Origin: an uncultured virus (IMG/VR IMGVR_UViG_2061766007_000215)
Taxonomy: Duplodnaviria > Heunggongvirae > Uroviricota > Caudoviricetes
DNA: 56,176 nucleotides
IMG/VR virus record: IMGVR_UViG_2061766007_000215
Strand: one strand, 5' to 3'
Under the pieces are notes generated by a model. That model had not been told where the DNA came from and did not search any database. It saw only the letters and a list, made by a program, of their open reading frames with translations. A program made the translations under genes and the position numbers. Below are positions 1,170 through 56,176 of the stretch, piece by piece (position 1 is the stretch's first letter; every line of letters starts with the position of its first letter).

Positions 1170-1463
1170 TTAAATTACCTCCTCAATTCTTATATATCTT
1201 TTTGAAAAATCTTCAATTTCTGCAATAGCCTTTTTATATTCTTCTGTTGTAAAATCAGTAACCATATACTGACCATTCGAATCTCCAACCCATTCCATCA
1301 TATAGATAAGACATTCTTCGGAAGATTGATTAGGGTTATATTCTTTTACAAGTTTTGCCATAAGAATTACATCTTTACGTGTATTCCTACATTCACATAA
1401 ACGATAATAACAATCATTATCTACTTTTTTAAGTTTTTCACGCCAATCATTATTCCATTTCAT
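1170..1463 (-). CDS. Hypothetical protein
   Basis: AAGGAGG RBS, own promoter (-35 at 1511-1516). Confidence 0.8.
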   Translation of the reverse strand: MKWNNDWREKLKKVDNDCYYRLCECRNTRKDVILMAKLVKEYNPNQSSEECLIYMMEWVGDSNGQYMVTDFTTEEYKKAIAEIEDFSKRYIRIEEVI

Positions 1464-2955: not shown

Positions 2956-3507
2956 TCAATACCATTTTAAAATTTCTTCAAGTAAATCTTTTTTCTCGGT
3001 TTCGTAAAAACATCCCATATCTTTATTTTCTTCGTGATTATATACGCTATACTCTTCGGAAAATATGTTTATATCAGCACTATATTTATCACTTATATCT
3101 ACTATTTGATAAACACTTTCCATTTGAAATAATTGAGTTAAAACACAATCATCATAATAATCATTCATTTCAACTACAAAATCATCACTAAATCCATATC
3201 TTGCATCACCAAATAAATGTACACAGATTATAGCAATAGGATTTCCCTTTTTATACCAAATTGAAATATCCTTATCAATACAATTACCATAATTATATGA
3301 ATAATAATTATCAGCATCCTTTTTAAATTCTGAAATAAATTCATCAGTAGCGTCTATTTCATAATCTTTAAGTTCTTCAAGATAAGGAATAATATCTCCA
3401 CAAATCACATCATTAGATATATTCCCATTTTCATCGTAAATCCAAGCCCTATTTTCACCTAATCTACTTGCTTTTACCGCTTCAATTACATTTGTTAATC
3501 TTGACAT
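2956..3507 (-). CDS. Acidic hypothetical protein
   Basis: GGAGG RBS before MSRL, own promoter. Confidence 0.8.
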   Translation of the reverse strand: MSRLTNVIEAVKASRLGENRAWIYDENGNISNDVICGDIIPYLEELKDYEIDATDEFISEFKKDADNYYSYNYGNCIDKDISIWYKKGNPIAIICVHLFGDARYGFSDDFVVEMNDYYDDCVLTQLFQMESVYQIVDISDKYSADINIFSEEYSVYNHEENKDMGCFYETEKKDLLEEILKWY

Positions 3508-23974: not shown

Positions 23975-26578
23975 TTGATAAGTAAATATGGAATAAAGAT
24001 AAAGAACTTTCAAGCAGGTGCTTTATATCAATGTAACCTTGGTGTAAGAGAAAATTATGATTATACTAGGGCTATGTTTACTAATAATCTTTTATTATAT
24101 TATCTTATGGATAATGGATTAAAAGTAAACAATGGTTGGACTAGAGATATAATTTGTATAGAATTTGATTATGGTTCAAGGTCTTATGAAGAAGAAATTA
24201 AACATTTAGATAAATGTATTAAGTCAGCCGAGTGCGAAGGTAATATTGAAAAGATTGAATGTTTAAAATCTTATAAGGCACAAGCAGAACTTAAAAAAGA
24301 TTTATTTAATAAAAAGTCTGCTGATGAGATAAGAGAAATATTTTATACTAAAGGTATAGAAATAAGACACGACATACAAAGAAAAAATGGAAAAATTACT
24401 AAACAAGAATTTGTCCATTATAATATGCTTTATCGTTCAACAGGTAAAGCAAAAGATGGTTCTTGTATGTTTATTTGTGATAGACTTTATAAAAAGGCAC
24501 TTAATTTTATTCGTATGGGAATTAAGTTGCCTAAAAATAATGCGCCTATAGTTGAGATGGGTGCATATAGTTCTCTTATTGCAAGTTCTATTATTGATAC
24601 AATACATATTGACCCAAAAAATATTTTAATACTTAAAGACATTGATAGTTATTTTACTACCAATGTTATTAGTATTGAAACAGATAAAGACAAACATTGT
24701 ATTGCAATACCTAAAGAAAATTATCAATTAAAGAATACTATGTTTGATGGTCAAGGTCTTATTGATGAAAGTATTTTTCCTAAATGGGGAAATGGTTATC
24801 TTTTATTAAGACACCATATGTGTAAGATGGCTTGTTTTAAAACCAAAATACAAAAGTTCTTTAAGGATTATTATAAAAATAATTATGATAATGCAATAAT
24901 TACAGATATGTTTGGTATAGAACATTATGCTAAAGATATTAAACTTATAACTACAGATAACGCTATGAAATGGTTAAAGTTTGATATATCTTATGATTAT
25001 TGGTGTAAAAAAGTTTATGAAAATAAATGCGCTTTTGGTGTAGTTAAGACCGCACATAAAAGTAAATTAGGTGAAGTTCAAAAGATGAGTTATCAAATGA
25101 TTAACTCTTTAGATATGGACGTAATGCCTAATGTAGTAAATAAAAGCAAAGAATATATTGAACTATTAAAAAAAGATAATGATGTATTTTTAGATTATCT
25201 TAGAGAAAACAAAAACTTTTCAAATGATTTTGAAGTGTTAGTCGCTTTATGTAATCAAAATAAAGAGTTTACTAGGAGTGATTATTTTAGATATAGAAAA
25301 TCTAACATAATTGAATCCTATGTAAATAATTTTAAATTTGGTAAAGTATTACAGAACGCAGATAATCTTGTTTTTGTTGGTAGTCCTTATGCTATGTTAC
25401 TTTATACTGTAGGACAAGACGTAGAAACAGATACTACTTTTAAACAAGAAAAAGATTGTATTCAATGTTTTACTCAAAGATTTAAAGACAGAGAATATTT
25501 GGCTTGTTTTCGTAGTCCACATAATAGTAAAAATAATATATCTTATTTGCATAATACTTATTCAGATGAATATATTAAATATTTTGATTTAGGTGAACAA
25601 ATAATAGCACTCAATGTATTACATACTCCTGTTCAAGATAGGATGAATGGTTGTGATTTTGATAGTGATTCGGGATATGTGACTAATCAAGAAGATATAG
25701 TTGAATGTGCAAAGAGAGCATATTTAAATTATCCAACAATAGTTAATAATATATCAAAAGATAAAAATCATTATAATAACGATTTATTAACTTTTGCTAA
25801 AATAGATAATGGATTAGCACACGCTCAAAGTGCAATAGGTTTATCAAGTAATCTTGCTCAATTTGCTCAAACTTATATGTATAATTTTGATGATAATAAA
25901 TATAAAGACTATGTATGTATTCTTTCTGTACTTGCTCAATGTGCTATTGATAATGCTAAAAGAACTTTTGATATAAATATAGTTGATGAAATAGAACGTA
26001 TTAAACAAGATATGGATATTGAAAAGAATGGCGTACCCGTATTTTGGAAACACGTTAAAGATTATAAATCAAAAATTGGTGATAAAAAATTTGATAGTGC
26101 AAAAATAAATAAAGATTTAAAATGTCCTATGAATTATTTAATGGACTTAAAGTTTAATAATTCAAGGAGTAATGAAAGCACTTTACCAATGAGTTATTTC
26201 TTTGAGAAATTTGATTTACAAGAAGATAGACGTAAATGCAGAAAGGTTGAAGAACTTATAGAAAAATATTCAATAGATTTGTTTATTTATAATGTCACCC
26301 ATTCCCTTGATGATGATTATAGATATTATAAAAATGCAATTGAAATAGATTTTGAAGAATTATTAGATGATATTAAAAGTATTTATATTTCAAAAAACTA
26401 TTTAGGTCTTATGTCTTGGTTAATTGATAGGGCTTTCTGTATTACTCCGAGTATTAAACAAAACAAAATGACAATAAAAAATAGTACAAATAAAAATAAA
26501 TCGTTATTGATAAAAATTTTATATGATATAAATTCTCAAAATTTATTAAAATGTTTTAGCAAAAATTGTAAAAAATGA
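23975..26578 (+). CDS. yonO: YonO-like single-subunit (double-psi beta-barrel) RNA polymerase, copy A
   Basis: 867 aa; FDGQG, RSPH, GCDFDSD and AIDNAK motifs; SPbeta-like position before HU, YonK, YonJ and terminase. Confidence 0.85.
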   Translation: MISKYGIKIKNFQAGALYQCNLGVRENYDYTRAMFTNNLLLYYLMDNGLKVNNGWTRDIICIEFDYGSRSYEEEIKHLDKCIKSAECEGNIEKIECLKSYKAQAELKKDLFNKKSADEIREIFYTKGIEIRHDIQRKNGKITKQEFVHYNMLYRSTGKAKDGSCMFICDRLYKKALNFIRMGIKLPKNNAPIVEMGAYSSLIASSIIDTIHIDPKNILILKDIDSYFTTNVISIETDKDKHCIAIPKENYQLKNTMFDGQGLIDESIFPKWGNGYLLLRHHMCKMACFKTKIQKFFKDYYKNNYDNAIITDMFGIEHYAKDIKLITTDNAMKWLKFDISYDYWCKKVYENKCAFGVVKTAHKSKLGEVQKMSYQMINSLDMDVMPNVVNKSKEYIELLKKDNDVFLDYLRENKNFSNDFEVLVALCNQNKEFTRSDYFRYRKSNIIESYVNNFKFGKVLQNADNLVFVGSPYAMLLYTVGQDVETDTTFKQEKDCIQCFTQRFKDREYLACFRSPHNSKNNISYLHNTYSDEYIKYFDLGEQIIALNVLHTPVQDRMNGCDFDSDSGYVTNQEDIVECAKRAYLNYPTIVNNISKDKNHYNNDLLTFAKIDNGLAHAQSAIGLSSNLAQFAQTYMYNFDDNKYKDYVCILSVLAQCAIDNAKRTFDINIVDEIERIKQDMDIEKNGVPVFWKHVKDYKSKIGDKKFDSAKINKDLKCPMNYLMDLKFNNSRSNESTLPMSYFFEKFDLQEDRRKCRKVEELIEKYSIDLFIYNVTHSLDDDYRYYKNAIEIDFEELLDDIKSIYISKNYLGLMSWLIDRAFCITPSIKQNKMTIKNSTNKNKSLLIKILYDINSQNLLKCFSKNCKK

Positions 26579-26694
26579 TATGTTTTTATGTATACCTAAA
26601 TTTTAAAAGTTTATGTAAACCCTTGATTTTATTGGGTTTTTAGAACATTAATAACTTAAACTAGTGATAGAGGGTGTTGCAAACCCTTTATAGA

Positions 26695-29809: not shown

Positions 29810-29956
29810 GTGAGTTGGGAATATAATAAAACCAACCCCGTAGAAAACGATATGTTTAGATTAGACGAATTATATGATGAAGAAATAGATAGCATTGAAT
29901 ATACAGAAGAAGAACTTGAACTTATAGAACGAATTAACAAATCGGGGAGTTTATGA
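29810..29956 (+). CDS. Small acidic protein coupled to RNAP (copy A from 23824)
   Basis: AAAGGAG RBS, ATGA overlap with RNAP start, conserved in both copies. Confidence 0.65.
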   Translation: MSWEYNKTNPVENDMFRLDELYDEEIDSIEYTEEELELIERINKSGSL

Positions 29957-32556
29957 TTAGTAAATACGGAATAAAGATAAAAAACTTTCAAGCAGGAGCA
30001 TTGTATCAATGTAACCTTGGCGTGAGAGAGAATTACGACTACACAAGGGCTATGTTTACAAATAATCTGTTGCTTTATTATCTTATGGATAATGGATTAA
30101 AGGTAAACAATGGTTGGACAAGAGATATAATATGTATAGAATTTGATTATGGCTCAAGGTCTTACGAAGAAGAAATTAAACATTTAGACAAATGTATAAA
30201 GTCTGCGGAGTGTGAGGGCAATATAGATAAGGTTGAATGTTTAAAATCTTTTAAGACACAGGCAGAACTTAAAAAAGATTTATTTAGTAAAAAGTCTGCT
30301 GACGAAATAAGAGAAATATTCTATACTAAAGGTGTAGAAATAAGACACGACATACAAAGAAAGAATGGTAAGATAACAAAACAAGAGTTTGTGCATTATA
30401 ATATGCTTTATCGTTCTACAGGAAAAGCCAAAGATGGTTCTTGTATGTTTATTTGTGATAGGCTTTATAAAAAGGCACTTAATTTTATCCGTATGGGAAT
30501 TAAGATGCCTAAAAATAATGCACCTATAGTTGAAATGGGTGCATATAGTTCTCTTATAGCAAGTTCTATTATTGATACAATACACGTTGACCCGAAAAAT
30601 ATTCTAATCCTTAAAGACATTGACAGTTATTTTACTACCAATGTTGTTAGTGTAGAAACTGATAAGAATAAACATTGTGTCGCTATACCTAAAGAAAACT
30701 ATCAATTAAAAAATACAATGTTTGACGGACAGGGTTTAATTGATGAAAGTATATTCCCTAAATGGGGAAATGGGTATCTTTTGTTAAGACACCATATGTG
30801 TAAAATGGCGTGTTTTAAAACAAAGATACAAAAGTTCTTTAAAGATTATTATCAAGACAATTATGATAATGCCGTTATTACAGATATGTTTGGTATAGAA
30901 CATTATGCTAAAGATATAAAAATAATAACTACAGACAATGCTATGAAATGGTTAAAGTTTGGAATTGATTATGAGTATTGGTGTAAAAAGGTATATGAAA
31001 ATAAATGTACTTTTGGCGTAGTTAAAACGGCACATAAAAGTAAATTAGGTGAAGTCCAAAAGATGAGTTATCAAATGATTAACTCTTTAGATATGGATAT
31101 TATGCCTAATGTAGTTAAAAAGAGTAAAGAATATATTGAGTCATTAAAAAGAGATAATGACATATTTTTGAAATATCTTAACGATAATAAAAACTTTTCA
31201 AATGACTTTGAAGTATTAATTGCTTTATGTAATCAAAATAAAGATTTCCTGCGGAGTGAATATTTTAGAAAGCGTAAAACAATTATTATTGAAAACTATA
31301 TAAGTAATCTAAAGTTTGGTAAGGTATTACAAAATGCAGACAATCTTGTTTTTGTTGGTAGCCCATATGCTATGTTACTTTACACAGTTGGAGAAGATGT
31401 AGAAAACGATACTACGTTTAAACAAGAAGAAGATTGTATTCAATGCTTTACTCAAAGATTTGGTGATAATGAACGTTTGGCTTGTTTTAGAAGCCCGCAT
31501 AATTCAAAGAATAATATTTCTTATTTACATAATGTTTATTCAGAAGAATATTTCAAGTATTTTGATTTAGGTGAACAAATAATAGCACTTAATGTTTTAC
31601 ACACACCTATTCAAGATAGAATGAATGGTTGTGACTTTGATAGTGATTCGGGATATGTTACTAATCAAATTGATATAGTACAATGTGCAAGACGGGCATA
31701 TTTAAATTATCCGACTATAGTTAATAATATCCCAAAAGATAAAAATAAATATAACAATACTTTAGAGAATTATGCTTTAATAGATAATTCATTATCACAC
31801 GCTCAAAGTGCAATAGGACTTTCAAGTAACCTTGCTCAATTAGCACAAACATATATGTATAATTTTGATGACCAAAAATATAAAGACTATGTTTGTATAT
31901 TGAGTGTTCTTGCACAAGCGGCTATTGATAATGCAAAAAGAACATTTGACGTTAATATCATAGATGAGATAGAAAGAATTAAACAAGATATTAACGTTGA
32001 AGAAAATGGTTCTCCTGCTTTTTGGAAACATGTAAAAGATAAAAAGGCAAAACTAAATGATAAAAAATTCAGTTCTGATAAAATAAATAAAAAATTAGTT
32101 TGCCCTATGAATTATCTTATGGATTTAAAGTTCGATAATTACAGGAGTAATGAATCTACTTTGCCTATGAGTTATTTCTTTGAAAAGTTTGAATTAGAAG
32201 ATGACAGGCGCAAATGTAGAAAGGTTGAAGAATTAATTGAAAAATATTCTTTAGATTTATTTTTATATAATACCACATATGCTTATGATGAAAATTATAA
32301 GAGATACAAAGAAGAAATACAATTAGACTTTGAAGAACTTATAAATGATATTAAAAGTATATATATATCTAAAAATTATTTAGGTCTTATGTCTTGGTTA
32401 ATAGATAGAGCATTTTATATTACACCAAGTATAAAACAAAATAAATGTAATGTAAAAAATAATACAAATAAAAATAAATCACTTTTAATTAAAATATTAT
32501 ATGATATAAATTCTAAAAATTTATTAAAATGTTTTAGCAAAAATATTAAAAAATGA
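29953..32556 (+). CDS. yonO: YonO-like single-subunit RNA polymerase, copy B
   Basis: Same motifs and length as copy A. Confidence 0.85.
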   Translation: MISKYGIKIKNFQAGALYQCNLGVRENYDYTRAMFTNNLLLYYLMDNGLKVNNGWTRDIICIEFDYGSRSYEEEIKHLDKCIKSAECEGNIDKVECLKSFKTQAELKKDLFSKKSADEIREIFYTKGVEIRHDIQRKNGKITKQEFVHYNMLYRSTGKAKDGSCMFICDRLYKKALNFIRMGIKMPKNNAPIVEMGAYSSLIASSIIDTIHVDPKNILILKDIDSYFTTNVVSVETDKNKHCVAIPKENYQLKNTMFDGQGLIDESIFPKWGNGYLLLRHHMCKMACFKTKIQKFFKDYYQDNYDNAVITDMFGIEHYAKDIKIITTDNAMKWLKFGIDYEYWCKKVYENKCTFGVVKTAHKSKLGEVQKMSYQMINSLDMDIMPNVVKKSKEYIESLKRDNDIFLKYLNDNKNFSNDFEVLIALCNQNKDFLRSEYFRKRKTIIIENYISNLKFGKVLQNADNLVFVGSPYAMLLYTVGEDVENDTTFKQEEDCIQCFTQRFGDNERLACFRSPHNSKNNISYLHNVYSEEYFKYFDLGEQIIALNVLHTPIQDRMNGCDFDSDSGYVTNQIDIVQCARRAYLNYPTIVNNIPKDKNKYNNTLENYALIDNSLSHAQSAIGLSSNLAQLAQTYMYNFDDQKYKDYVCILSVLAQAAIDNAKRTFDVNIIDEIERIKQDINVEENGSPAFWKHVKDKKAKLNDKKFSSDKINKKLVCPMNYLMDLKFDNYRSNESTLPMSYFFEKFELEDDRRKCRKVEELIEKYSLDLFLYNTTYAYDENYKRYKEEIQLDFEELINDIKSIYISKNYLGLMSWLIDRAFYITPSIKQNKCNVKNNTNKNKSLLIKILYDINSKNLLKCFSKNIKK

Positions 32557-48682: not shown

Positions 48683-49777
48683 ATGGAATTTGCTAATGTA
48701 AAGGCATTTGCAGAAGTGTCTAAAGATTTATACGATGCTATGAAAGCATTTTCTCTTAATTATAATAACGAAAGAAAGGGTCTTTCTGCTTTTTCAGACC
48801 ATTCTCGTGAAGAAATGGCTAAGTGCATAAACAAGGCTTTTGCTCTTGAAATTGCAAAGCAGAGTGGCGTTGAACTTCCTAACCTTGAAAACAAGACAGA
48901 AGTTAGACGTTTTGCTATGAACCCTATGGTAAGATATTTCGCAAATCAGATTCAAGACGTAATGATTGATATGGTTCTTCCCGAAACTCTTATGACGGGT
49001 TCTCTTAGATATTTTGCTGATATTAGAAATGCAGACCTTGGAGATTCAATCAAGTTTGATATTAAGTCAAATTCACTCTTTACTGTTTCTAAGGCAGGTA
49101 ACAGACAGAGAACAACTAATCAGCAAAAAACTTTCCGTACAACTGTTACAATGACAGGTGTAAATCACGAAATTACGATTGGAACGACTCTCTTTGAGAT
49201 GCTTACGGGTCAGTCTTTCCTTGCAGAAGAGGTTATGAAAGTTGCTCGTTCTATTGAAACGACAATGCTCTTTGAAGCATATGACGCTTTCACAACTGAG
49301 GCTAACGCTCTTACGGGTAATCTTGCAGTTGCTAACTACGCAGAATCTTCACTTATTAGTCTTTGCGAAACCATTACGGCTTATAACCAAGGACGTAAGG
49401 CAGTTATTCTTGGTACTCCTGTAGCACTCAAGGACGTTCTTCCCGATAATGCTAATTATCGTTATCTTCTTGAAGATGATTATGTAAAACTTGGACACCT
49501 TCAAACATTCAACGGATATGATGTTCTTCCTATGGAACAGGTTGCTAATCCTTATTCAGCAACACCTTACGCTCTTAAACTTGATGATACTAAGATTTAT
49601 GTAGTATCTCCTGCAAGTGATAAGATTGTTAAGATTGGTGTATTTGGTGGAACATTCTCACATCAAGATAACGCTTATGATAACGCTAACAAGCAAATTG
49701 AGAATACTACCGAAAAGAGTTGGGAAGTTGCTGTGGTTACAAATTCAGTAGCAGGTGTTGTTAAGAAACTTCACTAA
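48683..49777 (+). CDS. Major capsid protein
   Basis: 364 aa, position, codon bias, followed by a hairpin; second-strain C-terminus at 52349..52484. Confidence 0.8.
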   Translation: MEFANVKAFAEVSKDLYDAMKAFSLNYNNERKGLSAFSDHSREEMAKCINKAFALEIAKQSGVELPNLENKTEVRRFAMNPMVRYFANQIQDVMIDMVLPETLMTGSLRYFADIRNADLGDSIKFDIKSNSLFTVSKAGNRQRTTNQQKTFRTTVTMTGVNHEITIGTTLFEMLTGQSFLAEEVMKVARSIETTMLFEAYDAFTTEANALTGNLAVANYAESSLISLCETITAYNQGRKAVILGTPVALKDVLPDNANYRYLLEDDYVKLGHLQTFNGYDVLPMEQVANPYSATPYALKLDDTKIYVVSPASDKIVKIGVFGGTFSHQDNAYDNANKQIENTTEKSWEVAVVTNSVAGVVKKLH

Positions 49778-49792
49778 TTTAATATAAAACTT

Positions 49793-49816
49793 TAGGGGAA
49801 CTTAATTGTTCCCCTA
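49793..49816 (+). terminator. Hairpin after MCP
   Basis: TAGGGGAAC...GTTCCCCTA; equivalent hairpin 52512-52537. Confidence 0.6.
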
Positions 49817-49841
49817 GTACATAGAATAGAGGAATTAAAAT

Positions 49842-50531
49842 ATGGCTGAAACAAAACGTAGGGGTAGACCACCTAAGTCAGAAAATACTCCTAAAGTAGA
49901 AGAAAAGAAAACTGATAATATCCAAGACGAACTTATTAAAAAGTTAATGGCTCAAATTGAAGCACAAAATGCTAAAATGGCAGAAATGCAAAAACAGATT
50001 GAAAGTAAATCTCAACCTGTTGTTGTAAGTAATAACAACGAATCTATTCGTGGTAAAAAGGTTAAAGTAGTAAACCTTATGCAAAATCCACTTAATATTT
50101 CTACTGAACCTAATGGCGGTGGAAGAACTTATTCATTTAAGAATTATGGTGATAGTAGACTTATTAAATTTGATGATTTAGCAGATATAGTAGCATCTTA
50201 TCCATATACTATGGAACACGGTCTAGCATATATTTGTGATAAAGAAGTTGTAAAAGAACTTGGTCTTGAAGATGAATATGCTAAACTTTTTGATAAAGAT
50301 AAAATGGATAAAGTTGTTAAACTAAGAGAAGAAGCAGACCTTGAATTATTCCTTGGTATGGATATTAATTTACAGGATTCTGCCGCTATACGTATAGCAG
50401 AACTTATAAACGCAAATGAGAGAATGGATTATAATTATTTGCGTACTATTAAAGAAAAGACGGGTATTGATATTGAAGAAATTGCAAAAGAACTTAAAGA
50501 ACTTCAAAGAAAGCCCGATGATGAAGAATAA
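49842..50531 (+). CDS. Head-region protein with AT-hook (KRRGRPPK) and coiled coil
   Basis: Motif, position after MCP. Confidence 0.7.
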   Translation: MAETKRRGRPPKSENTPKVEEKKTDNIQDELIKKLMAQIEAQNAKMAEMQKQIESKSQPVVVSNNNESIRGKKVKVVNLMQNPLNISTEPNGGGRTYSFKNYGDSRLIKFDDLADIVASYPYTMEHGLAYICDKEVVKELGLEDEYAKLFDKDKMDKVVKLREEADLELFLGMDINLQDSAAIRIAELINANERMDYNYLRTIKEKTGIDIEEIAKELKELQRKPDDEE

Positions 50532-50633
50532 TTAAAATATTATAATGCGGTGGCGTGGAGTGAAAAGGCGAAAGAAAAAACTTATTCAACAGTATGAGGG
50601 AATCTACCCTTGCCGAGTCACCGCATTAAACAA

Positions 50634-50721
50634 AAATAAGTAGGACAGAGGGTTGCAAACCTTTTCTGTTACCACCATAACAGATTACTACTTATTTATA
50701 TTATCTTGGTGGAGATAAAAA
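50634..50721 (+). ncRNA. Three-way-junction RNA leader with loop-RBS pairing, copy 1
   Basis: Covarying stems versus 52580-52666. Confidence 0.7.
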
Positions 50722-51696
50722 ATGAACAATAAAAATAAATATATTGGTTTGACGAATAAAATGAATTGTGGTATGAGTTGTACAATAATTGATTTTCGTA
50801 ATACCAAAGATATAGATGTTCAATTTGAAGATGGTAATATTATTAAAAATAGAAATTATTACTGTTTTTTAAAAGGAAAAATATTAAATAATAATTTTCC
50901 GCATAATTGGACTAATATAGAAAATTTAATTAATAAACGTTTTAGTCGATGGAAAGTAATTAGTTTTGATAAAAATTCAAATAATAACATAGCACATTGG
51001 ATATGTCAATGTGAATGTGGAACTATTAAAAGTGTTGCGGGTAGAGATTTAAAAAACGGAAAAAGTAAATCTTGTGGTTGTTTAAAAAACGAATTAGCAT
51101 CAATAAGAAGTAGAAAAAACACAAAAACAAATAAACTTAAAGAAAAATATCCCGAATTAATTAAATATTTAGTAAATAAAAATGATAAAGAATTAACTTT
51201 ATCAGTAACCAATAATATAAAATGTATATGCCCTATATGTAATACTTATAAAACATATAGTAGTATGAGAACATTTGTTGCATATGGATTTACTTGTCCT
51301 AATTGTTCATCTAAAATTTCTTATCCTAATAGATTTATGTTTAAAGTTTTAAATCAGTTAAATATTGAATTTAAAACAGAAAAAACATTTAAATGGTCAA
51401 ATAAGAAAAGATATGATTTTTATATTCCTAGTTTGTCTTGTATAATAGAAGTGCAAGGAAATCAACATTACAGAGATAGCCAATGGTCTAAAGTGGAATA
51501 TCAACAACAAAATGATAAATTAAAAGAAATTTTGGCTTTATCTAATGGAATAAAAATATATATACAATTAGATTGTAAAAATAGTGATTTTAAATATATG
51601 AAACAATCTATTTTAAATAATGATAAAGTAAATAAATTATTTGATTTATCTAAAATAGATTGGGATGCAATAGAAAAAGAACTAAAGGAGGTATAA
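50722..51696 (+). CDS. Free-standing putative homing endonuclease (Zn ribbons plus PD-(D/E)XK/Vsr-like domain)
   Basis: WICQCECG...SKSCGC, CPIC/CPNC, RYDFYIP...IIEVQGNQHY. Confidence 0.75.
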   Translation: MNNKNKYIGLTNKMNCGMSCTIIDFRNTKDIDVQFEDGNIIKNRNYYCFLKGKILNNNFPHNWTNIENLINKRFSRWKVISFDKNSNNNIAHWICQCECGTIKSVAGRDLKNGKSKSCGCLKNELASIRSRKNTKTNKLKEKYPELIKYLVNKNDKELTLSVTNNIKCICPICNTYKTYSSMRTFVAYGFTCPNCSSKISYPNRFMFKVLNQLNIEFKTEKTFKWSNKKRYDFYIPSLSCIIEVQGNQHYRDSQWSKVEYQQQNDKLKEILALSNGIKIYIQLDCKNSDFKYMKQSILNNDKVNKLFDLSKIDWDAIEKELKEV

Positions 51697-51698
51697 AG

Positions 51699-52184
51699 TT
51701 GGTTACGTTTAAAGATATACTTGATAGAGCGTACATTACATTATTTACCGACTACAAGTTAGATAAATTAGTAGAAGTTGACGAACAAGCATTTTATACC
51801 TACTTAGGAGGTTTTTTATGTAATGCCACAGATATATTTGATAGTTGTTTAACAGATTTATCATATCACCCTGTTGAAGAAGTAATAGAGAAAGATAATC
51901 AACTTGTTAGAGTTACGAATTATGTGTTCGATAACGAATTATCAAGTAAAGAAATATATATTTTATCTCTTGGTGTTGCTTTAGGTTGGTATAAGAAACA
52001 ACTTGATGATGTTACTCAATTTAGATTGCATTTATCTAATAAAGATTTCAAGTCTTATAGTGAACAACAGAATTTACAACGTAGACTTGAAAGATTAGGT
52101 GCTATGGAAGAGGATTTATCCGAAGAGATACAAAAGTATCAACTTGCTAACTTAGATAAACTCCCGTATTTTGGGGGTGAGTAA
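51699..52184 (+). CDS. Putative head-tail adaptor (second copy 55993..56176)
   Basis: Position; AAGGAGG RBS before TTG; homolog starts MVTFK. Confidence 0.55.
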   Translation: MVTFKDILDRAYITLFTDYKLDKLVEVDEQAFYTYLGGFLCNATDIFDSCLTDLSYHPVEEVIEKDNQLVRVTNYVFDNELSSKEIYILSLGVALGWYKKQLDDVTQFRLHLSNKDFKSYSEQQNLQRRLERLGAMEEDLSEEIQKYQLANLDKLPYFGGE

Positions 52185-52186
52185 TT

Positions 52187-52338
52187 ATGTTTGCTTTTAA
52201 TAGAGAAAGTTATACTAAAAATATTGCTCAGACACCAAAAGAATATTGGGAAGGTTTACATCAAGCAACTATAGATACTATGTGGAGAGATACCACACAG
52301 ATATATAATATAAAAGAACAGGACGCTTTACCTTTTAC
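52187..52338 (+). CDS. Structural protein N-terminus (likely continues at 53567..54443)
   Basis: Truncated by gap. Confidence 0.5.
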
Positions 52339-52579
52339 NNNNNNNNNNGTTTGGTGGAACATTCTCACATCAAGATAACGCTTATGATAACGCTAATAAG
52401 ACAATTGAATCAACTACCGAAAAGGCATGGGAAGTTGCCGTAGTCACGAACTCAGTTGCGGGCGTTGTAAAGAAGCTCCACTAATTTATAGAAATATAAA
52501 TTATAAATATATTAGGGGAAATAAAAATTTCCCCTAAGTACATATTGACAAATCATTCAAAATATGATATAATATAATC

Positions 52580-52666
52580 ACAGACAGGACAGAGGGTTGC
52601 AAACCTTTTCTATCTTTTCTCCCAAAGATAGATTACTGTCTGTAAAATACATTGGGAGATAATATT
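52580..52666 (+). ncRNA. Three-way-junction RNA leader with loop-RBS pairing, copy 2
   Basis: Begins at the predicted start of promoter TTGACA 52545 / TATAAT 52568. Confidence 0.7.
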
Positions 52667-53500
52667 ATGAGTGATAGAAAATATTGTGTGTATAAACATA
52701 CTTCTCCATCAAATAAGGTTTATATTGGAATAACTTTTAATCCAAAAAGACGTTGGTATGATGGAAATGGTTATTTACATAAAAGAAAAGATGGTAAATA
52801 TAATCAACCTTTATTTGCAAGAGCAATACTTAAATATGGTTGGGATAATTTTGCTCATGAAATTTTAGAAGATAATCTTTCCAAAGAACAGGCTTGTGAA
52901 TTAGAGAAAAAATACATACAAGAATACGATTCTACAAATCCACAAAAAGGATATAATATTTCTTTTGGTGGAGATATTTTAATGTATGGAAAAATCCATT
53001 CAGAAGAAACTAGAAAATTACTTAGGCAAAAAACACCTAAAAGTAAAGATTATTATAGAAGTATTAATCAATACGACCTTGATGGTAATTTTATAAAAAC
53101 TTGGAAAGATAGTTCTGAAATATATGATAGTGAATTTAAACCATATTGTGCAGTTATAAAGAAATGTTGTTATAGACAAAAACATTATTTAACTGCTTGT
53201 AATTATCAATGGCGTTATATTGATGATTGTGAAGATATAGGTAAATTATGCAAAATAAAACCACCAACTAAAGTTAGACAACTTTATGAAGTTAATCCTA
53301 TAAATGGTGATATAATAAAACATTATAATTCTATAACGGAATGTAGTAATGAATTAAATTTATCATTTAGGAGAATAATGGATTGTTGTCGTGGTGTAAC
53401 AATATCGGTTGATAAACGTTTATTTATCTATGTAGAAGATTATGATTCTACATTAAATGAAAGATTAATTAGATATAATAATAAATATAGGCATAATTAA
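52667..53500 (+). CDS. GIY-YIG homing endonuclease with NUMOD-type repeats (one strain only)
   Basis: CVY...VYIGIT..PKRRW...E...GYN; HSEET; INQYDLDGNFIKTW. Confidence 0.85.
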   Translation: MSDRKYCVYKHTSPSNKVYIGITFNPKRRWYDGNGYLHKRKDGKYNQPLFARAILKYGWDNFAHEILEDNLSKEQACELEKKYIQEYDSTNPQKGYNISFGGDILMYGKIHSEETRKLLRQKTPKSKDYYRSINQYDLDGNFIKTWKDSSEIYDSEFKPYCAVIKKCCYRQKHYLTACNYQWRYIDDCEDIGKLCKIKPPTKVRQLYEVNPINGDIIKHYNSITECSNELNLSFRRIMDCCRGVTISVDKRLFIYVEDYDSTLNERLIRYNNKYRHN

Positions 53501-53566
53501 AATATGCCTAGTACATAGAATAGAGGAATTAAAATATGGCTGAAACAAAACGTAGGNNNNNNNNNN

Positions 53567-54443
53567 ATATGGTAATATAATTAAACAACCTTGTTATTTG
53601 GGAACAGATGTAACATCTACAAATAACCTTATAGGTAAAGATGGTATTGTTCCTAATGCAAGATTAATTATACTTATTCAAGCAAACGATTTTACTAAAT
53701 CTATAGTCAAAAACCAAAGATTTATGTTTGAACATTCTACGGCTTTTAAAGTAGAAGAAGTAAATAATTATATGCAGGAACAAGGTACAGATGGTCAAGT
53801 AACTTGTATTAAAATATATATTAACTATAGTGCAATTACGCCTAATGATAATGTAGAACTTAATATTTGTGATTATTATGATACTGATTATACTATTAAG
53901 ATAAATCAAGAAAATAATATTAAACAAGTAACAGGATTTACAGGAATATTAACGGCTACTGTGAAGAATATTGATACTGTGGTTGAAGGTTTACAAGTTA
54001 ATTGGTATTCAAGTGATAATACAGTTGTTAAAATAGATAATAATGGCAATTATGAAATAGTTGGTAATATAGTTGGAAATAAAGCAACTATTACCTGTTG
54101 TTTGGATGTTAATAAAGAAATAAAAGATTCTATTGATGTAGAGATTGTTTCAAGTGTTGTTACAAATAAGGTTATAGTAGTTAATCCTAATGATATAAAA
54201 CTACTTAAAGAAAGAGATAAAGTAGACTTTATTTGTAATGTTTATGACGAGGGAGATTTACAACCCGATGTGGTTAACTGTATTGGTAGTGGCGTACCCG
54301 ATAATTGTTATACTCTTACTAGCAATCATAGTGGCTATAAACTTATCATACATAAAAAATACAACACGCCACTTACATTAACATTTAGTGCAATGGGTTG
54401 CGCTGATTATGTGATGACTATTAAACTTATAGGATTATTATAG
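53567..54443 (+). CDS. Structural protein with Ig-like domain (5' end in gap)
   Basis: VNWYSSDNTVVKIDNNG...GxATIT Big_2-like motif. Confidence 0.7.
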
Positions 54444-55872: not shown

Positions 55873-56176
55873 AGTTAATAACATAAGGTAAAACTTATGT
55901 TTATATAGTATATAAGATAACTNNNNNNNNNNCAAGAGTGTTGGATTTGAAATATATTCCAACACTCTAATAATAAAAGAAAGGGGTATGCTAAATGGTC
56001 ACTTTTAAGAATGTACTTGACCGAGTATATACAACTCTCTTTACGGATTATAAACTCGATAAATTAGTTGAAATAGATGAACAAGCCTTTTATGATTTTC
56101 TTGGTGGCTTTTTGGTAAACTCCATTGATATATTTGATAGTTGTTTAACAGATTTATCATATCACCCTGTTGAAGA

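What the first reader, a model, noticed from the sequence alone, without database searches (positions are those of the whole stretch)
50634..52666. Same covarying RBS-pairing RNA leader on two unrelated endonuclease genes
Seen: both leaders share GGACAGAGGGTTGCAAACCTTTTCT and an AGATTAC junction, but stems differ while keeping pairing. P1 is AAATAAGTAG/CTACTTATTT versus ACAGACAG/CTGTCTGT; P3 is TCTGTTA/TAACAGA versus TCTATCTTT/AAAGATAGA. The P3 loop (CCACCA versus TCTCCC) is complementary to each gene's own SD region (TGGTGG 50707; GGGAGA 52654). Copy 2 starts at its promoter's predicted +1. One gene is PD-(D/E)XK-like, the other GIY-YIG. Known: T4 homing endonucleases are silenced by RBS-occluding hairpins, and c4 antisense RNAs are three-stem junctions. 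Inference: a portable pseudoknot or switch module that limits toxic nuclease translation. A related AGGG..TTGCAAACCCT hairpin sits at ~26670.
Basis: partly seen in the sequence, partly recalled or inferred. Interest (0 to 1): 0.8.

Follow-up and report, generated by a model that had tools for sequence, protein, structure and literature searches.

The report
Conserved RNA leader on phage homing-endonuclease genes
A small, conserved three-armed RNA sits in front of many unrelated selfish nuclease genes in uncultured phages, and one of its loops is always matched to that gene's own ribosome-binding site, so it most likely holds down translation of the nuclease.

Summary
Both window copies (50634-50697; 52580-52643) share an identical 25-nt core and fold into the same three-way junction (3WJ). 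Pattern scans and two covariance models recovered 38 distinct relatives from about 45 IMG/VR contigs, two metagenome contigs and one Romboutsia MAG. None matches Rfam 15. Stems P1, P2 and P3 covary (94.7% of cells paired; 21 of 27 pairs with double changes). The P3 loop is complementary to the region overlapping the gene's own Shine-Dalgarno sequence (SD) in 34 of 38 (own 6.3 nt versus 4.0 for mismatched partners; 0 of 20,000 permutations). Of 32 annotated downstream ORFs, 27 are nuclease or homing-endonuclease-like: GIY-YIG, LAGLIDADG, PD-(D/E)XK-like and PHROG 'HNH' families. The leader lies at the 5' edge of the inserted cassette and is absent from empty sites. New here: with its sequence left free in the scan, the 8-nt P2 loop is nearly always purine + 6-nt palindrome + purine (UUGCAA, UUCGAA, GUCGAC, CUGCAG, UCAUGA), which suggests RNA-RNA kissing dimers. 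Best reading: a portable cis-acting SD-sequestering pseudoknot leader. Its effect on translation, any trigger and dimerisation are inferred, not shown. The hairpin near 26670 is not a member.

The parts
50634..50697 (+). Leader copy 1, three-way junction. P1 50634-50643/50688-50697; J1/2 GAC 50644-50646; P2 50647-50651/50660-50664 with 8-nt loop GUUGCAAA 50652-50659; P3 50665-50671/50678-50684 with anti-SD loop CCACCA 50672-50677; J3/1 UUA 50685-50687.
   Evidence: covariance models R1 69.0 bits and R2 67.7 bits
50707..50712 (+). UGGUGG, the partner of the copy-1 P3 loop. It overlaps the 5' part of the SD (GGUGGAG), and its 3' end lies 9 nt before the ATG at 50722.
50722..51696 (+). Homing-endonuclease-like ORF (324 aa) with a PD-(D/E)XK-like, I-Bth0305I/Vsr-like C-terminal domain
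   Evidence: phrog_4538 2e-45, phrog_559 1.3e-21, phrog_9084 1.2e-20; fold match 3r3p_B Z 8.4; motif FDFY..IE.(D/Q)G..H shared with three homologues
52545..52573 (+). Cassette promoter of copy 2: TTGACA, 17 nt, TG-TATAAT
   Evidence: 12 of 12 consensus matches, the only such site in 49700-53620
52580..52643 (+). Leader copy 2, three-way junction. P1 52580-52587/52636-52643; GAC 52588-52590; P2 52591-52595/52604-52608 with loop GUUGCAAA 52596-52603; P3 52609-52617/52624-52632 with anti-SD loop UCUCCC 52618-52623; UUA 52633-52635.
   Evidence: R1 75.3 bits, R2 70.8 bits
52654..52659 (+). GGGAGA, the SD-region partner of the copy-2 P3 loop. The ATG is at 52667.
52667..53500 (+). GIY-YIG homing endonuclease ORF (277 aa) with NUMOD motifs
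   Evidence: PF01541 1.1e-07, 32.5 bits against cut-off 22.6; phrog_314 6.9e-29
52537..53517 (+). Extent of cassette 2 (promoter, leader, GIY-YIG gene, 3' hairpin 53490-53508), bounded by the direct repeat AGTACATA (52537-52544 and 53510-53517). The empty site is window 49778-49841.
   Evidence: Occupied and empty sites compared by eye

Best explanation
The element is a member of a previously undescribed, widespread family of about 60-nt leader RNAs. These leaders travel with free-standing homing-endonuclease gene (HEG) cassettes in uncultured phages, here from bovine gut.

It folds as a three-way junction: P1 - GAC - P2 - (no linker) - P3 - UUA - P1'. The junction is invariant in every member recovered (G-C closing P1; GAC; the A-U and G-U/C pairs at the base of P2; the UCU/AGA pairs at the base of P3; UUA).

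The P3 loop is a gene-specific anti-SD. It pairs with 5-8 nt that cover the 5' half of the Shine-Dalgarno sequence and the bases just upstream of it. This forms a pseudoknot that hides the ribosome-binding site and keeps translation of a potentially harmful nuclease low.

The junction, together with the roughly constant 21-nt path from junction to target, probably holds the loop ready to capture the SD as soon as it is transcribed.

In many members a promoter sits so that the transcript begins at the first base of P1. The silencer is therefore built into the cassette's own mRNA, unlike in T4.

The P2 loop is a purine-flanked 6-nt palindrome and probably lets two leaders kiss. What that does to translation is open.

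Shown by computation: the structure, covariation, loop-SD matching, gene association, cassette position and palindromy. Inferred: repression of translation, pre-organisation of the loop, dimerisation, and any trigger.
For: Structure: on 37 distinct sequences, 94.7% of cells are paired against 67.3% in shuffles. 21 of 27 pairs show changes on both sides, and the covariation score is 0.555 against 0.140 (0 of 500 shuffles). Slid registers give 36-49% paired (the first set of 17 is). P2 carries a G-U pair in 35 of 37 sequences, which would be C-A on the other strand, so it is the sense RNA that folds.

Pseudoknot: 34 of 38 leaders have >=5 nt of loop-to-SD-region complement, using 32 different pairing words. 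Own pairs average 6.32 and crossed pairs 4.03, with 0 of 20,000 permutations as high. The pairing ends 3-13 nt before the start codon (first set).

Geometry: P1 length and linker length are anticorrelated (r = -0.76), and the junction-to-target distance is 21.3 +/- 2.7 nt.

Gene association: 27 of 32 annotated downstream ORFs are nuclease or HEG-like. They include GIY-YIG (7), LAGLIDADG_3, the phrog_559/9084 PD-(D/E)XK-like group, and the phrog_374/3377, phrog_3339/DUF7487, phrog_8446 and phrog_655 groups.

Cassette membership: the leader is present where the HEG is present and absent from both empty sites (L008 between the 231-aa gene and the connector gene; window 49778-49841).

Promoters: an exact TATAAT ends 3-12 nt before P1 in 11 of 38 members, against 3 of 38 in a control window. 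TATAAATA with <=1 mismatch occurs in 12 of 38 against 5 of 38. The window copy-2 promoter matches 12/12.

Precedent: RNA structures that sequester the RBS regulate T4 I-TevI, I-TevII, I-TevIII and segB, and Aeh1 mobE (PMC2988022, passages read).
Against: There are no expression, probing or reporter data.

The pairing covers only the 5' part of the SD, usually AGG or GGG plus upstream bases, so occlusion may be partial.

In about half the members the whole 6-7-nt loop is used in the pairing. That leaves no crossing nucleotide, so the last P3 pairs may have to open.

Four of 38 leaders lack the pairing within 60 nt. One of them (L213) has a 6-nt complement about 57 nt downstream, seen by eye. 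Three form a subgroup with a UUUCCYGA P2 loop; the two whose downstream gene could be called precede a topoisomerase gene and a methyltransferase gene.

Five of 32 annotated downstream ORFs are not recognisably nucleases: the two just named, L100 (DnaD-like), L196 (unknown function) and L088:2080 (DUF7487 only).

None of 6 IMG/VR loci encoding relatives of the window's GIY-YIG enzyme carries the leader, so HEGs do not need it.

Ascertainment: members were found with patterns that fixed parts of the core. The invariance of each core part therefore rests only on the scan that left it free: for AGAUUAC, for GACAG, for the P2 loop. Divergent relatives are under-sampled. Many sequences are related, so shuffle controls overstate independence.
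Confidence: 0.7

Rival explanations
1. Regulated switch rather than a fixed brake. The invariant junction (about 20 nt) binds a small molecule, an ion or a host or phage protein. Binding decides whether the P3 loop can reach the SD, as in a riboswitch or a protein-responsive leader.
For: The junction nucleotides are identical in all 37 aligned members, while every stem has turned over. Conservation of that kind is typical of a binding pocket. The pseudoknot to the SD looks like a riboswitch expression platform. This reading keeps the cis SD pairing of the best explanation and adds a trigger.
Against: No alternative, mutually exclusive pairing (anti-anti-SD) was seen by eye or in MFE folds. No Rfam riboswitch class matches. 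The hosts are diverse and unknown, so no candidate ligand follows from gene context. Part of the invariance comes from how the members were found.
Confidence: 0.15
2. A c4-like antisense RNA. The compact 5' element is cut out of, or outlives, the mRNA. It then acts in trans on the SD regions of HEG transcripts, possibly held to its target through the palindromic P2 loop.
For: The logic matches P1/P7 c4 (recalled, not read here): a structured RNA encoded in the leader whose loops match the RBS region downstream in the same operon. Loop-target pairs differ between leaders like immunity specificities (32 pairing words). The P2 palindrome would give RNA-RNA contact.
Against: No match to the Rfam c4 families. 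There is no evidence of processing: only assembled contigs, not raw RNA reads, were available. The target lies 5-24 nt from the element in the same molecule, so cis pairing should win on local concentration.
Confidence: 0.07
3. A 5'-end stabiliser or processing signal. P1 buries the 5' end, and the conserved junction is recognised by an RNase. As with type I toxin mRNAs, the primary transcript would be inert until it is processed.
For: In many members the predicted transcription start is the first base of P1. Inert primary transcripts that are activated by 5' processing are described for dinQ (PMC5066626, abstract seen only in the search listing).
Against: Stabilisation alone does not explain the gene-specific loop-SD matching. 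Sixteen of 38 members have no -10-like hexamer (<=1 mismatch) in that window, and 27 have no exact TATAAT (TATAAATA sites were counted separately, and the overlap of the two sets was not worked out), so many may be read from upstream promoters. Copy 1 of the window has no such hexamer next to P1.
Confidence: 0.05
4. A DNA-level signal, such as a nuclease or recombination site, an operator for a dimeric protein, or a cruciform. The RNA fold would then be incidental.
For: P2 together with its palindromic loop is a near-perfect inverted repeat in DNA. The element sits at the cassette boundary.
Against: A G-U pair in 35 of 37 sequences is strand-specific. The stem sequences vary freely while pairing is kept, which a protein half-site would not allow. 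The matching of loop to SD has no meaning in DNA. The nucleases belong to unrelated families and would not share one site.
Confidence: 0.02
5. A new small self-cleaving ribozyme that frees the nuclease mRNA from upstream late transcripts.
For: It has a compact three-way junction with an invariant core and sits in phage genomes, as many small ribozymes do. One carrier contig also holds a RAGATH-18 RNA.
Against: No Rfam ribozyme model matches. No hammerhead-type core motif was seen by eye. Where a promoter precedes it, the element is already at the 5' end and there is nothing to cut off.
Confidence: 0.02

Closest known systems
RBS-sequestering hairpins of T4-type homing endonuclease genes (I-TevI, I-TevII, I-TevIII, segB; mobE of phage Aeh1)
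   Same: An RNA structure next to a HEG hides its ribosome-binding site, presumably to limit nuclease synthesis (PMC2988022, passages read).
   Different: Those are simple local hairpins, each idiosyncratic. They are bypassed by a late promoter placed inside the structure. Here one conserved three-way-junction family serves many nuclease families, the SD is reached by a loop-to-tail pseudoknot, and the promoter lies upstream of the whole element, so its own transcript carries the silencer.
c4 antisense RNA of phages P1/P7 (Rfam C4 family; biology recalled, not read here)
   Same: A small multi-stem RNA encoded in the leader, whose loops are complementary to the RBS region further down the same transcript. 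The complementary pairs differ between relatives.
   Different: No covariance-model match. The architecture and conserved core differ. The genes served are homing endonucleases, not an antirepressor operon. Processing and trans action are unknown here.
Retroviral dimerisation initiation site (HIV-1 DIS) kissing loop (recalled)
   Same: A hairpin loop made of a 6-nt self-complementary sequence flanked by purines. The palindrome changes by compensatory substitutions while staying a palindrome.
   Different: The context is a bacterial-phage mRNA leader, the loop is 8 nt rather than 9, and dimer formation is untested. This is an analogy only.
Riboswitch expression platforms that trap the SD in a pseudoknot (e.g. 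SAM-II, preQ1-II; recalled)
   Same: A conserved structured core, with the SD drawn into a pseudoknot with a loop.
   Different: No Rfam match, no known ligand, and the genes served are selfish nucleases rather than metabolic genes.
HEARO / IscB omega-RNA ('HNH endonuclease-associated RNA and ORF'; recalled)
   Same: A conserved structured RNA found immediately upstream of a nuclease gene on a mobile element.
   Different: HEARO is much larger and works as a guide RNA for a single protein family. This leader is about 60 nt, precedes several unrelated nuclease folds, and is matched to the SD rather than to a DNA target. No Rfam hit.
Unnamed candidate structured RNAs of IMG/VR (Fremin, Bhatt, Kyrpides 2023, PMC10690425)
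   Same: Same data source. Their Supplementary Table 3 lists candidates within 25 bp upstream of GIY-YIG, HNH, NUMOD and LAGLIDADG genes.
   Different: The main text does not mention homing endonucleases outside the reference list. The four candidates I looked up come from freshwater, groundwater and similar sources. Their alignments and models could not be read, so I cannot tell whether this family is among their 8,495 DNA-virus candidates.

Membership tests
Any Rfam 15 family (including c4, HEARO, small ribozymes, riboswitches) | Match to the family's covariance model | tested here: not met
   0 matches at gathering score in the whole window. At E<=10 on 50400-52900 there are only chance-level hits, the best overlapping one being Clostridium-PBP at 22.7 bits against a gathering score of 94.4. 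At E<=1, nothing lies at the element in nine related loci.
c4-type leader-encoded antisense RNA | Loops complementary to the RBS region downstream in the same transcript, differing between relatives | tested here: met
   34 of 38 leaders, 32 pairing words, 0 of 20,000 permutations
c4-type leader-encoded antisense RNA | Processed out of the leader and active in trans | not testable with these tools
   Only assembled contigs of public runs were available, and these cannot show RNA ends.
T4-type HEG translational hairpin | RNA structure that includes the SD of a homing endonuclease gene | tested here: met
   The predicted pairing covers the 5' part of the SD and ends 3-13 nt before the start codon. 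Pairing is inferred from covariation, not probed.
T4-type HEG translational hairpin | A late promoter inside or just after the 5' arm, so that late transcripts lack the inhibitory half | tested here: not met
   Promoter-like boxes end 3-14 nt upstream of P1, so the whole element is transcribed.
DIS-like kissing-loop dimerisation element | Hairpin loop with a 6-nt self-complementary core flanked by purines, kept through compensatory change | tested here: met
   34 of 38 distinct leaders carry a 6-nt palindrome in the P2 loop, of five kinds (UUGCAA, UUCGAA, GUCGAC, CUGCAG, UCAUGA). The exceptions are CAGGCCAG (1) and UUUCCYGA (3). Pseudo-pair columns are 91% complementary, and the central pair is GC in 22, CG in 11 and other in 4.
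DIS-like kissing-loop dimerisation element | Formation of an RNA homodimer | not testable with these tools
   There is only a nearest-neighbour estimate for isolated P2 hairpins: the dimer is favoured by -8 to -17 kcal/mol, against about -3 for the non-palindromic subgroup.
GIY-YIG homing endonuclease (gene behind copy 2) | GIY-YIG catalytic domain above Pfam's threshold, with DNA-binding NUMOD modules | tested here: met
   PF01541 at 32.5 bits against 22.6. NUMOD3, NUMOD1 and the I-HmuI NUMOD-like domain fall below their cut-offs. phrog_314 6.9e-29.
PD-(D/E)XK homing endonuclease, I-Bth0305I/Vsr-like (gene behind copy 1) | PD-(D/E)XK-type catalytic fold | tested here: met
   The C-terminal domain of the model (pLDDT about 70-89) matches 3r3p_B at Z 8.4 (96 aligned of a 98-residue chain; rmsd 3.7) and 1cw0_A at Z 8.3, followed by VRR_NUC, Hjc and TnsA. 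The score is only just above the tool's caution level of Z 8, and the top row (Z 8.6) is a mitoribosomal protein.
PD-(D/E)XK homing endonuclease, I-Bth0305I/Vsr-like (gene behind copy 1) | Complete catalytic motif | tested here: inconclusive
   D232 and E243 are invariant in 4 aligned homologues, but the position after E-x is Q in the window protein and D in the other three. Pfam gives only DUF2726 at E 0.061.

The most novel reading that the evidence does not exclude
The leader is an RNA-only dosage sensor. The purine-flanked palindromic P2 loop makes two nuclease mRNAs kiss, as retroviral DIS loops do. Dimer formation then sets whether the anti-SD loop holds the ribosome-binding site, possibly by domain swap, with the loop of one molecule pairing with the SD of the other. 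Translation of the selfish nuclease would thus respond to the concentration of its own transcript, and different palindromes within one phage would keep cassettes insulated from each other.
Probability: 0.3. Interest if true: 0.9.

Novelty: new variant of a known kind. Interest (0 to 1): 0.78.

Why it matters
Homing endonuclease genes are the commonest selfish elements in phage genomes. How they are kept harmless to their carrier has been worked out only for a few T4-type cases, each with its own ad hoc hairpin.

A single conserved RNA module shared by GIY-YIG, LAGLIDADG, PD-(D/E)XK-like and other nuclease cassettes would mean that the control element is itself a portable part, shuffled between cassettes like their DNA-binding modules.

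It would also serve as a sequence tag for finding HEG cassettes, including degenerate ones, in metagenomes. And it is a compact natural part (about 60 nt plus a programmable 6-8-nt loop-to-SD address) for tuning translation.

The palindromic loop, if it does mediate dimers, would add a bacterial-phage example of mRNA-mRNA kissing in gene control, directly testable with short RNAs.

Tried and rejected
Exact 18-mer scan of IMG/VR: the only hits were two GC-rich coding matches, rejected.

Metagenome 18-mer scan: 8 loci, of which 2 were real (L008, L010) and 6 were chance matches in GC-rich DNA.

Genome-collection scan: 3 loci, of which 1 was real (L180, a Romboutsia MAG, 69.6 bits). L179 and L181 were partial matches at 20.6 and 17.5 bits, rejected.

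The closest relative of the window phage by capsid (L003, 57% identity, a 96-kb contig) and L004 carry no copy within 3 mismatches of the 24-nt core.

blastn against 50,697 GenBank phage records with four different leaders found no hit covering the core. This method would miss cores with other P2 stems.

The tRNA-like and T-loop readings of the P2 loop (GUUCGAAA, 'anticodon' GCA) were rejected. Covariation fixes the stem register so that the loop has 8 nt, and other members have GUCGAC or CUGCAG loops.

A second copy of the palindrome nearby, as an intramolecular partner: within 90 nt downstream it occurs only in the L020 and L025 leaders, and within 60 nt upstream only in L213 and L216, so 4 of the 34 palindrome-bearing leaders in all. 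Rejected as a general feature.

Public runs: all holders are kept as assembled contigs, so they give no RNA ends or expression evidence. Laying four of them gave joints 50639->51831 in two runs and 50540->51831 in one. Each has only 30 letters on the shorter side and unknown sequence between. This is compatible with cassette-less variants but too weak to count.

The single-protein search gave 6 loci, none with the leader.

Literature: six full-text searches combining homing endonuclease with RNA motif, pseudoknot, three-way junction, kissing loop, candidate structured RNAs or Shine-Dalgarno found no description of this element.
Full report
**1. The observation**

The window is AT-rich (27.3% G+C) and is a scaffold with 31 runs of N. 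Around the finding it carries phage head genes:
- a capsid-like gene at 48683-49777 (phrog_4088);
- a 229-aa gene at 49842-50531;
- a connector-like gene from 51699.

No match appeared in 100 shuffles. The stems, loops and Shine-Dalgarno (SD) complements are at the stated coordinates.

Copy 2 begins 6 nt after a 12/12 TTGACA-17-TG-TATAAT promoter at 52545-52573.

The two downstream proteins are unrelated to each other (BLASTP E 0.28):
- One is a GIY-YIG/NUMOD enzyme.
- The other matches PHROG homing-endonuclease families. Its modelled C-terminal domain aligns with the I-Bth0305I catalytic domain (Z 8.4) and Vsr (Z 8.3).

The hairpin near 26670 only resembles P2 and is not a copy (10.8 bits, E 2.8; no hit).

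**2. It is a family**

Rfam 15 has nothing for it. An exact 18-mer of the core found only chance hits in IMG/VR. In metagenome contigs it found two real ones:
- L008 is nearly identical to copy 2.
- L010 has the same core but new P1 and P3 stems, a new P3 loop (ACCCC) and a matching SD region (GGGGU). It sits ahead of another GIY-YIG gene, just after a related capsid gene.

I then scanned IMG/VR with patterns that each left a different part of the core free:
- P2 stem free;
- GACAG junction free;
- the whole P2 hairpin free.

Parsing every hit for P1, P2 and P3 pairing gave 130 instances, which collapse to 38 distinct sequences. Many instances are the same contig fetched in several scans. By my hand count, they lie on about 45 IMG/VR contigs, two metagenome contigs, one MAG labelled uncultured Romboutsia (L180) and the window.

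Two covariance models (R1, R2) score the members at 40-76 bits. In the window they find only the two copies. They also picked up a divergent extra copy that no pattern had matched (L191 329-388, 54.1 bits). In it the conserved UCU/AGA base of P3 is replaced by UUC/GAA.

No cultured-phage record in GenBank matched the core by blastn. That method is blind to other P2 stems. The window's stretch is held mostly by bovine-gut and other animal-gut metagenome runs.

**3. Anatomy**

The consensus is:

5'-P1(4-11 bp, ending G)-GAC-[A G n n n]-R-(6-nt palindrome)-R-[n n n Y U]-[U C U ... loop ... A G A]-UUA-[C ... P1']-3'

On 37 aligned distinct sequences:
- P1 and P2 are paired in 100% of cells, and P3 in 88%.
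- Overall, 94.7% of cells are paired against 67.3% in shuffles.
- 21 of 27 pairs show changes on both sides.
- Slid registers give only 36-49% paired.

The G-U pair at the base of P2 is present in 35 of 37 sequences. This shows that the sense strand is the one that folds.

P2 and P3 abut without a linker, so they should stack. P1 is joined to them by two invariant 3-nt strands.

Caveat: each conserved block was fixed in some scans. Its invariance is therefore shown only by the scan that freed it:
- AGAUUAC, with variants in L077 and L191;
- GACAG, with one member (L100) carrying a 1-nt insertion in P2;
- the P2 loop.

**4. The loop-SD pseudoknot**

In 34 of 38 leaders the P3 loop has 5-8 contiguous Watson-Crick complements in the 60 nt after P1. 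Examples are CCUACAC/GUGUAGG, UCCUAUGC/GCAUAGGA, CUCCUAA/UUAGGAG and CCACCA/UGGUGG. There are 32 different pairing words, and 30 of them contain GG.

The pairing ends 3-13 nt (median 9) before the start codon, so it covers the 5' half of the SD plus the bases upstream of it. Own pairs average 6.32 nt and crossed pairs 4.03. None of 20,000 permutations reached the observed mean (first set).

P1 length and linker length are anticorrelated (r = -0.76). This keeps the path from junction to target at 21.3 +/- 2.7 nt.

This covariation is the strongest evidence that the element acts on the ribosome-binding site of its own gene.

**5. What it precedes, and where it sits**

Of 32 downstream ORFs scanned, 27 match nuclease or homing-endonuclease families:
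- GIY-YIG by Pfam: 7;
- LAGLIDADG_3: L067;
- the phrog_559/9084/4538 group, to which the window's PD-(D/E)XK-like enzyme belongs: 5;
- phrog_374/3377, labelled 'HNH endonuclease': 5, plus one weak match;
- phrog_3339 with DUF7487;
- phrog_8446;
- phrog_655.

Six leaders were not scanned. Two have GIY-YIG- or HNH-like ORFs with an in-frame stop. One has a GIY-YIG start truncated after 9 codons. One precedes an unassigned 105-aa ORF. One has no ORF. One (L025) is followed by a near-identical copy of a scanned LAGLIDADG gene.

Exceptions among the scanned ORFs:
- L100 is DnaD-like, L196 is of unknown function, and L088:2080 has DUF7487 only.
- A three-member subgroup (L199, L239, L248) has a P2 loop (UUUCCYGA) that is not palindromic and a P3 loop that does not match the SD. 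Two of the three precede a topoisomerase gene and a methyltransferase gene. The third has no ORF.

Comparing occupied and empty sites shows that the leader belongs to the inserted cassette.
- Site 1: L008 lacks the copy-1 cassette. Its sequence runs from the shared 5' flank (...CAAAAAUAA) straight into the connector gene's SD. In the window, the 3WJ, SD and nuclease ORF are inserted at that point.
- Site 2: the window's own capsid-to-229-aa-gene spacer (49778-49841) is the empty form of the site that holds cassette 2. Cassette 2 consists of promoter, leader, GIY-YIG gene and a 3' hairpin, bounded by an AGTACATA direct repeat.

Conversely, none of 6 IMG/VR loci encoding relatives of the window's GIY-YIG enzyme (26-57% identity) has the leader. 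This was checked with filters off, and the best score was 9.4 bits. The leader is therefore an optional, exchangeable part.

**6. Promoters**

An exact TATAAT ends 3-12 nt upstream of P1 in 11 of 38 members, against 3 of 38 in a control window 30 nt further upstream. With one mismatch allowed the counts are 22 against 12.

A T4-late-like TATAAATA (<=1 mismatch) ends 2-14 nt upstream in 12 of 38, against 5 of 38. It is found in all members with GUCGAC or UCAUGA loops.

Many cassette transcripts should therefore begin at the first base of P1. This differs from T4, where the late promoter lies inside the inhibitory structure so that late transcripts escape it (PMC2988022). Here the cassette's own transcript carries the complete silencer.

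**7. The palindromic P2 loop (new)**

When the P2 hairpin was left free, the 8-nt loop turned out to vary while staying purine + 6-nt palindrome + purine. Counts are of distinct leaders:

| P2 loop | Distinct leaders |
|---|---|
| GUUGCAAA | 18 |
| GUUCGAAA | 8 |
| AGUCGACA | 3 |
| AUUGCAAG | 2 |
| AGUUGCAAA | 1 |
| AGUCAUGA | 1 |
| ACUGCAGU | 1 |

L205 (ACUGCAGG) failed my parse and is not counted. The exceptions are CAGGCCAG (1; only GGCC is palindromic) and the UUUCCYGA subgroup (3).

Treating the palindrome as three pseudo-pairs, 91% of cells are complementary and all three positions show double changes. The central, adjacent pair is GC in 22, CG in 11 and other in 4. Adjacent bases cannot pair within one hairpin, so the constraint points to pairing between two molecules or to DNA symmetry.

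DNA symmetry is unlikely for two reasons. The flanking purine-purine mismatch is kept in all but one palindromic member (L213, A...U). And the stems vary freely while keeping a strand-specific G-U.

A nearest-neighbour estimate for isolated P2 hairpins favours dimers by -8 to -17 kcal/mol, against about -3 for the non-palindromic subgroup. This is not evidence that dimers form.

Phages with several cassettes carry either the same palindrome or different ones:
- three UUCGAA leaders in a row on one contig (L235-L237);
- GUCGAC with UCAUGA (L182/L183);
- UUGCAA with UUCGAA (L251/L252).

**8. Mechanism**

Most likely (0.7), this is a cis-acting translational brake. The 3WJ folds first and presents the P3 loop. 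The loop captures the SD region about 21 nt after the junction, and ribosome loading on the nuclease mRNA is kept low. The covariation shows the pairing; its effect is inferred.

Whether the brake is fixed or is released by a ligand, a protein, processing or dimerisation is open. The invariant junction and the palindromic loop both suggest that there is more to it than a hairpin.

Rivals: a junction-binding switch (0.15), a c4-like processed trans-acting RNA (0.07), a 5' stabiliser or processing signal (0.05), a DNA-level signal (0.02) and a ribozyme (0.02).

**9. Novelty**

The principle of hiding a HEG's RBS in RNA structure is known from T4-type phages. A conserved, portable 3WJ-pseudoknot family shared by unrelated nuclease cassettes, with a purine-flanked palindromic loop, was not found in Rfam or in six full-text searches.

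It may sit unnamed among the 8,495 IMG/VR candidates of Fremin et al. 2023. Their table lists candidates upstream of GIY-YIG, HNH and LAGLIDADG genes. Their alignments could not be read, so this remains open.

I rate it a new variant of a known kind. If the dimer reading holds, it would be a new kind of control.

Noticed in passing
window 50546-50629; L008 1759-1883: A G+C-richer structured element lies between a TATAAT box (50541-50546) and the connector gene. Its closing stem AAUGCGGUGGCG.../...CGAGUCACCGCAUU is conserved, and its interior varies (84 nt in the window, ~125 nt in L008). It folds well (z -3.25 and -4.36) and is present both with and without the HEG cassette, so it is a resident leader of the phage and not part of the finding. 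No Rfam match.
   Followed up: partly
window 52350-52484, 55995-56174, 23975-26578 and 29953-32556: The window looks like a scaffold of co-assembled strain variants of one phage. It holds a second capsid C-terminus, a second connector N-terminus, two 867-aa ORFs and 31 N runs. The two leader copies may therefore come from different variants rather than from one genome.
   Followed up: partly
L067 2714-2775 (-): A RAGATH-18 RNA (RF03064, 60.1 bits against a gathering score of 44.9) lies about 1.5 kb upstream, on the same strand, of the LAGLIDADG leader in a 108-kb viral contig.
   Followed up: no
L229 (ORF after 1194-1254, minus strand); L088 after 3388-3443: Two nuclease ORFs behind intact leaders carry a single in-frame stop about 27-30 codons in, then read on (one HNH-like, one GIY-YIG-like). 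They could be pseudogenes or recoded stops. A third leader (L216) is followed by only 9 codons of a GIY-YIG-like start, so the leader can outlive its gene.
   Followed up: no
L199 1196-1255, L239 1197-1254, L248 1196-1255: A subgroup shares the same junction (GGACAG...YUUCU...AGAUUAC) but has a non-palindromic P2 loop (UUUCCYGA) and a 14-nt P3 loop with no SD complement. It sits ahead of topoisomerase II and DNA methyltransferase genes. This may be a sister family with another target.
   Followed up: partly
window 52537-52544 and 53510-53517: An 8-bp direct repeat AGTACATA bounds the GIY-YIG cassette and is present once at the empty site (window ~49812-49819). A hairpin GGCAUAAUUAAAAUAUGCC overlaps the nuclease stop codon at the cassette's 3' end.
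   Followed up: partly
L235, L236, L237 (one 128-kb viral contig, ~45.7-48.8 kb): Three leader-nuclease units stand in tandem (GIY-YIG, GIY-YIG, phrog_3339/DUF7487). All have the UUCGAA loop, but each has a different P3 loop matched to its own SD.
   Followed up: partly
L038/L076, L047/L084, L057/L093: In leaders ahead of phrog_374/3377 genes, P3 is 5 bp with a 16-nt loop of the form GAAA-CCUAxAx-(A/G)AGUA. Only the middle 7-8 nt pair with the SD region. The conserved GAAA...AGUA flanks may form a structured internal motif.
   Followed up: no
window 26669-26685: The hairpin AGAGGGU-GUUGCAA-ACCCUUU lies downstream of the 867-aa ORF. It shares the UUGCAA-containing loop and stem flavour of P2 but lacks P1, P3 and the junction. 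Its meaning is unknown.
   Followed up: partly
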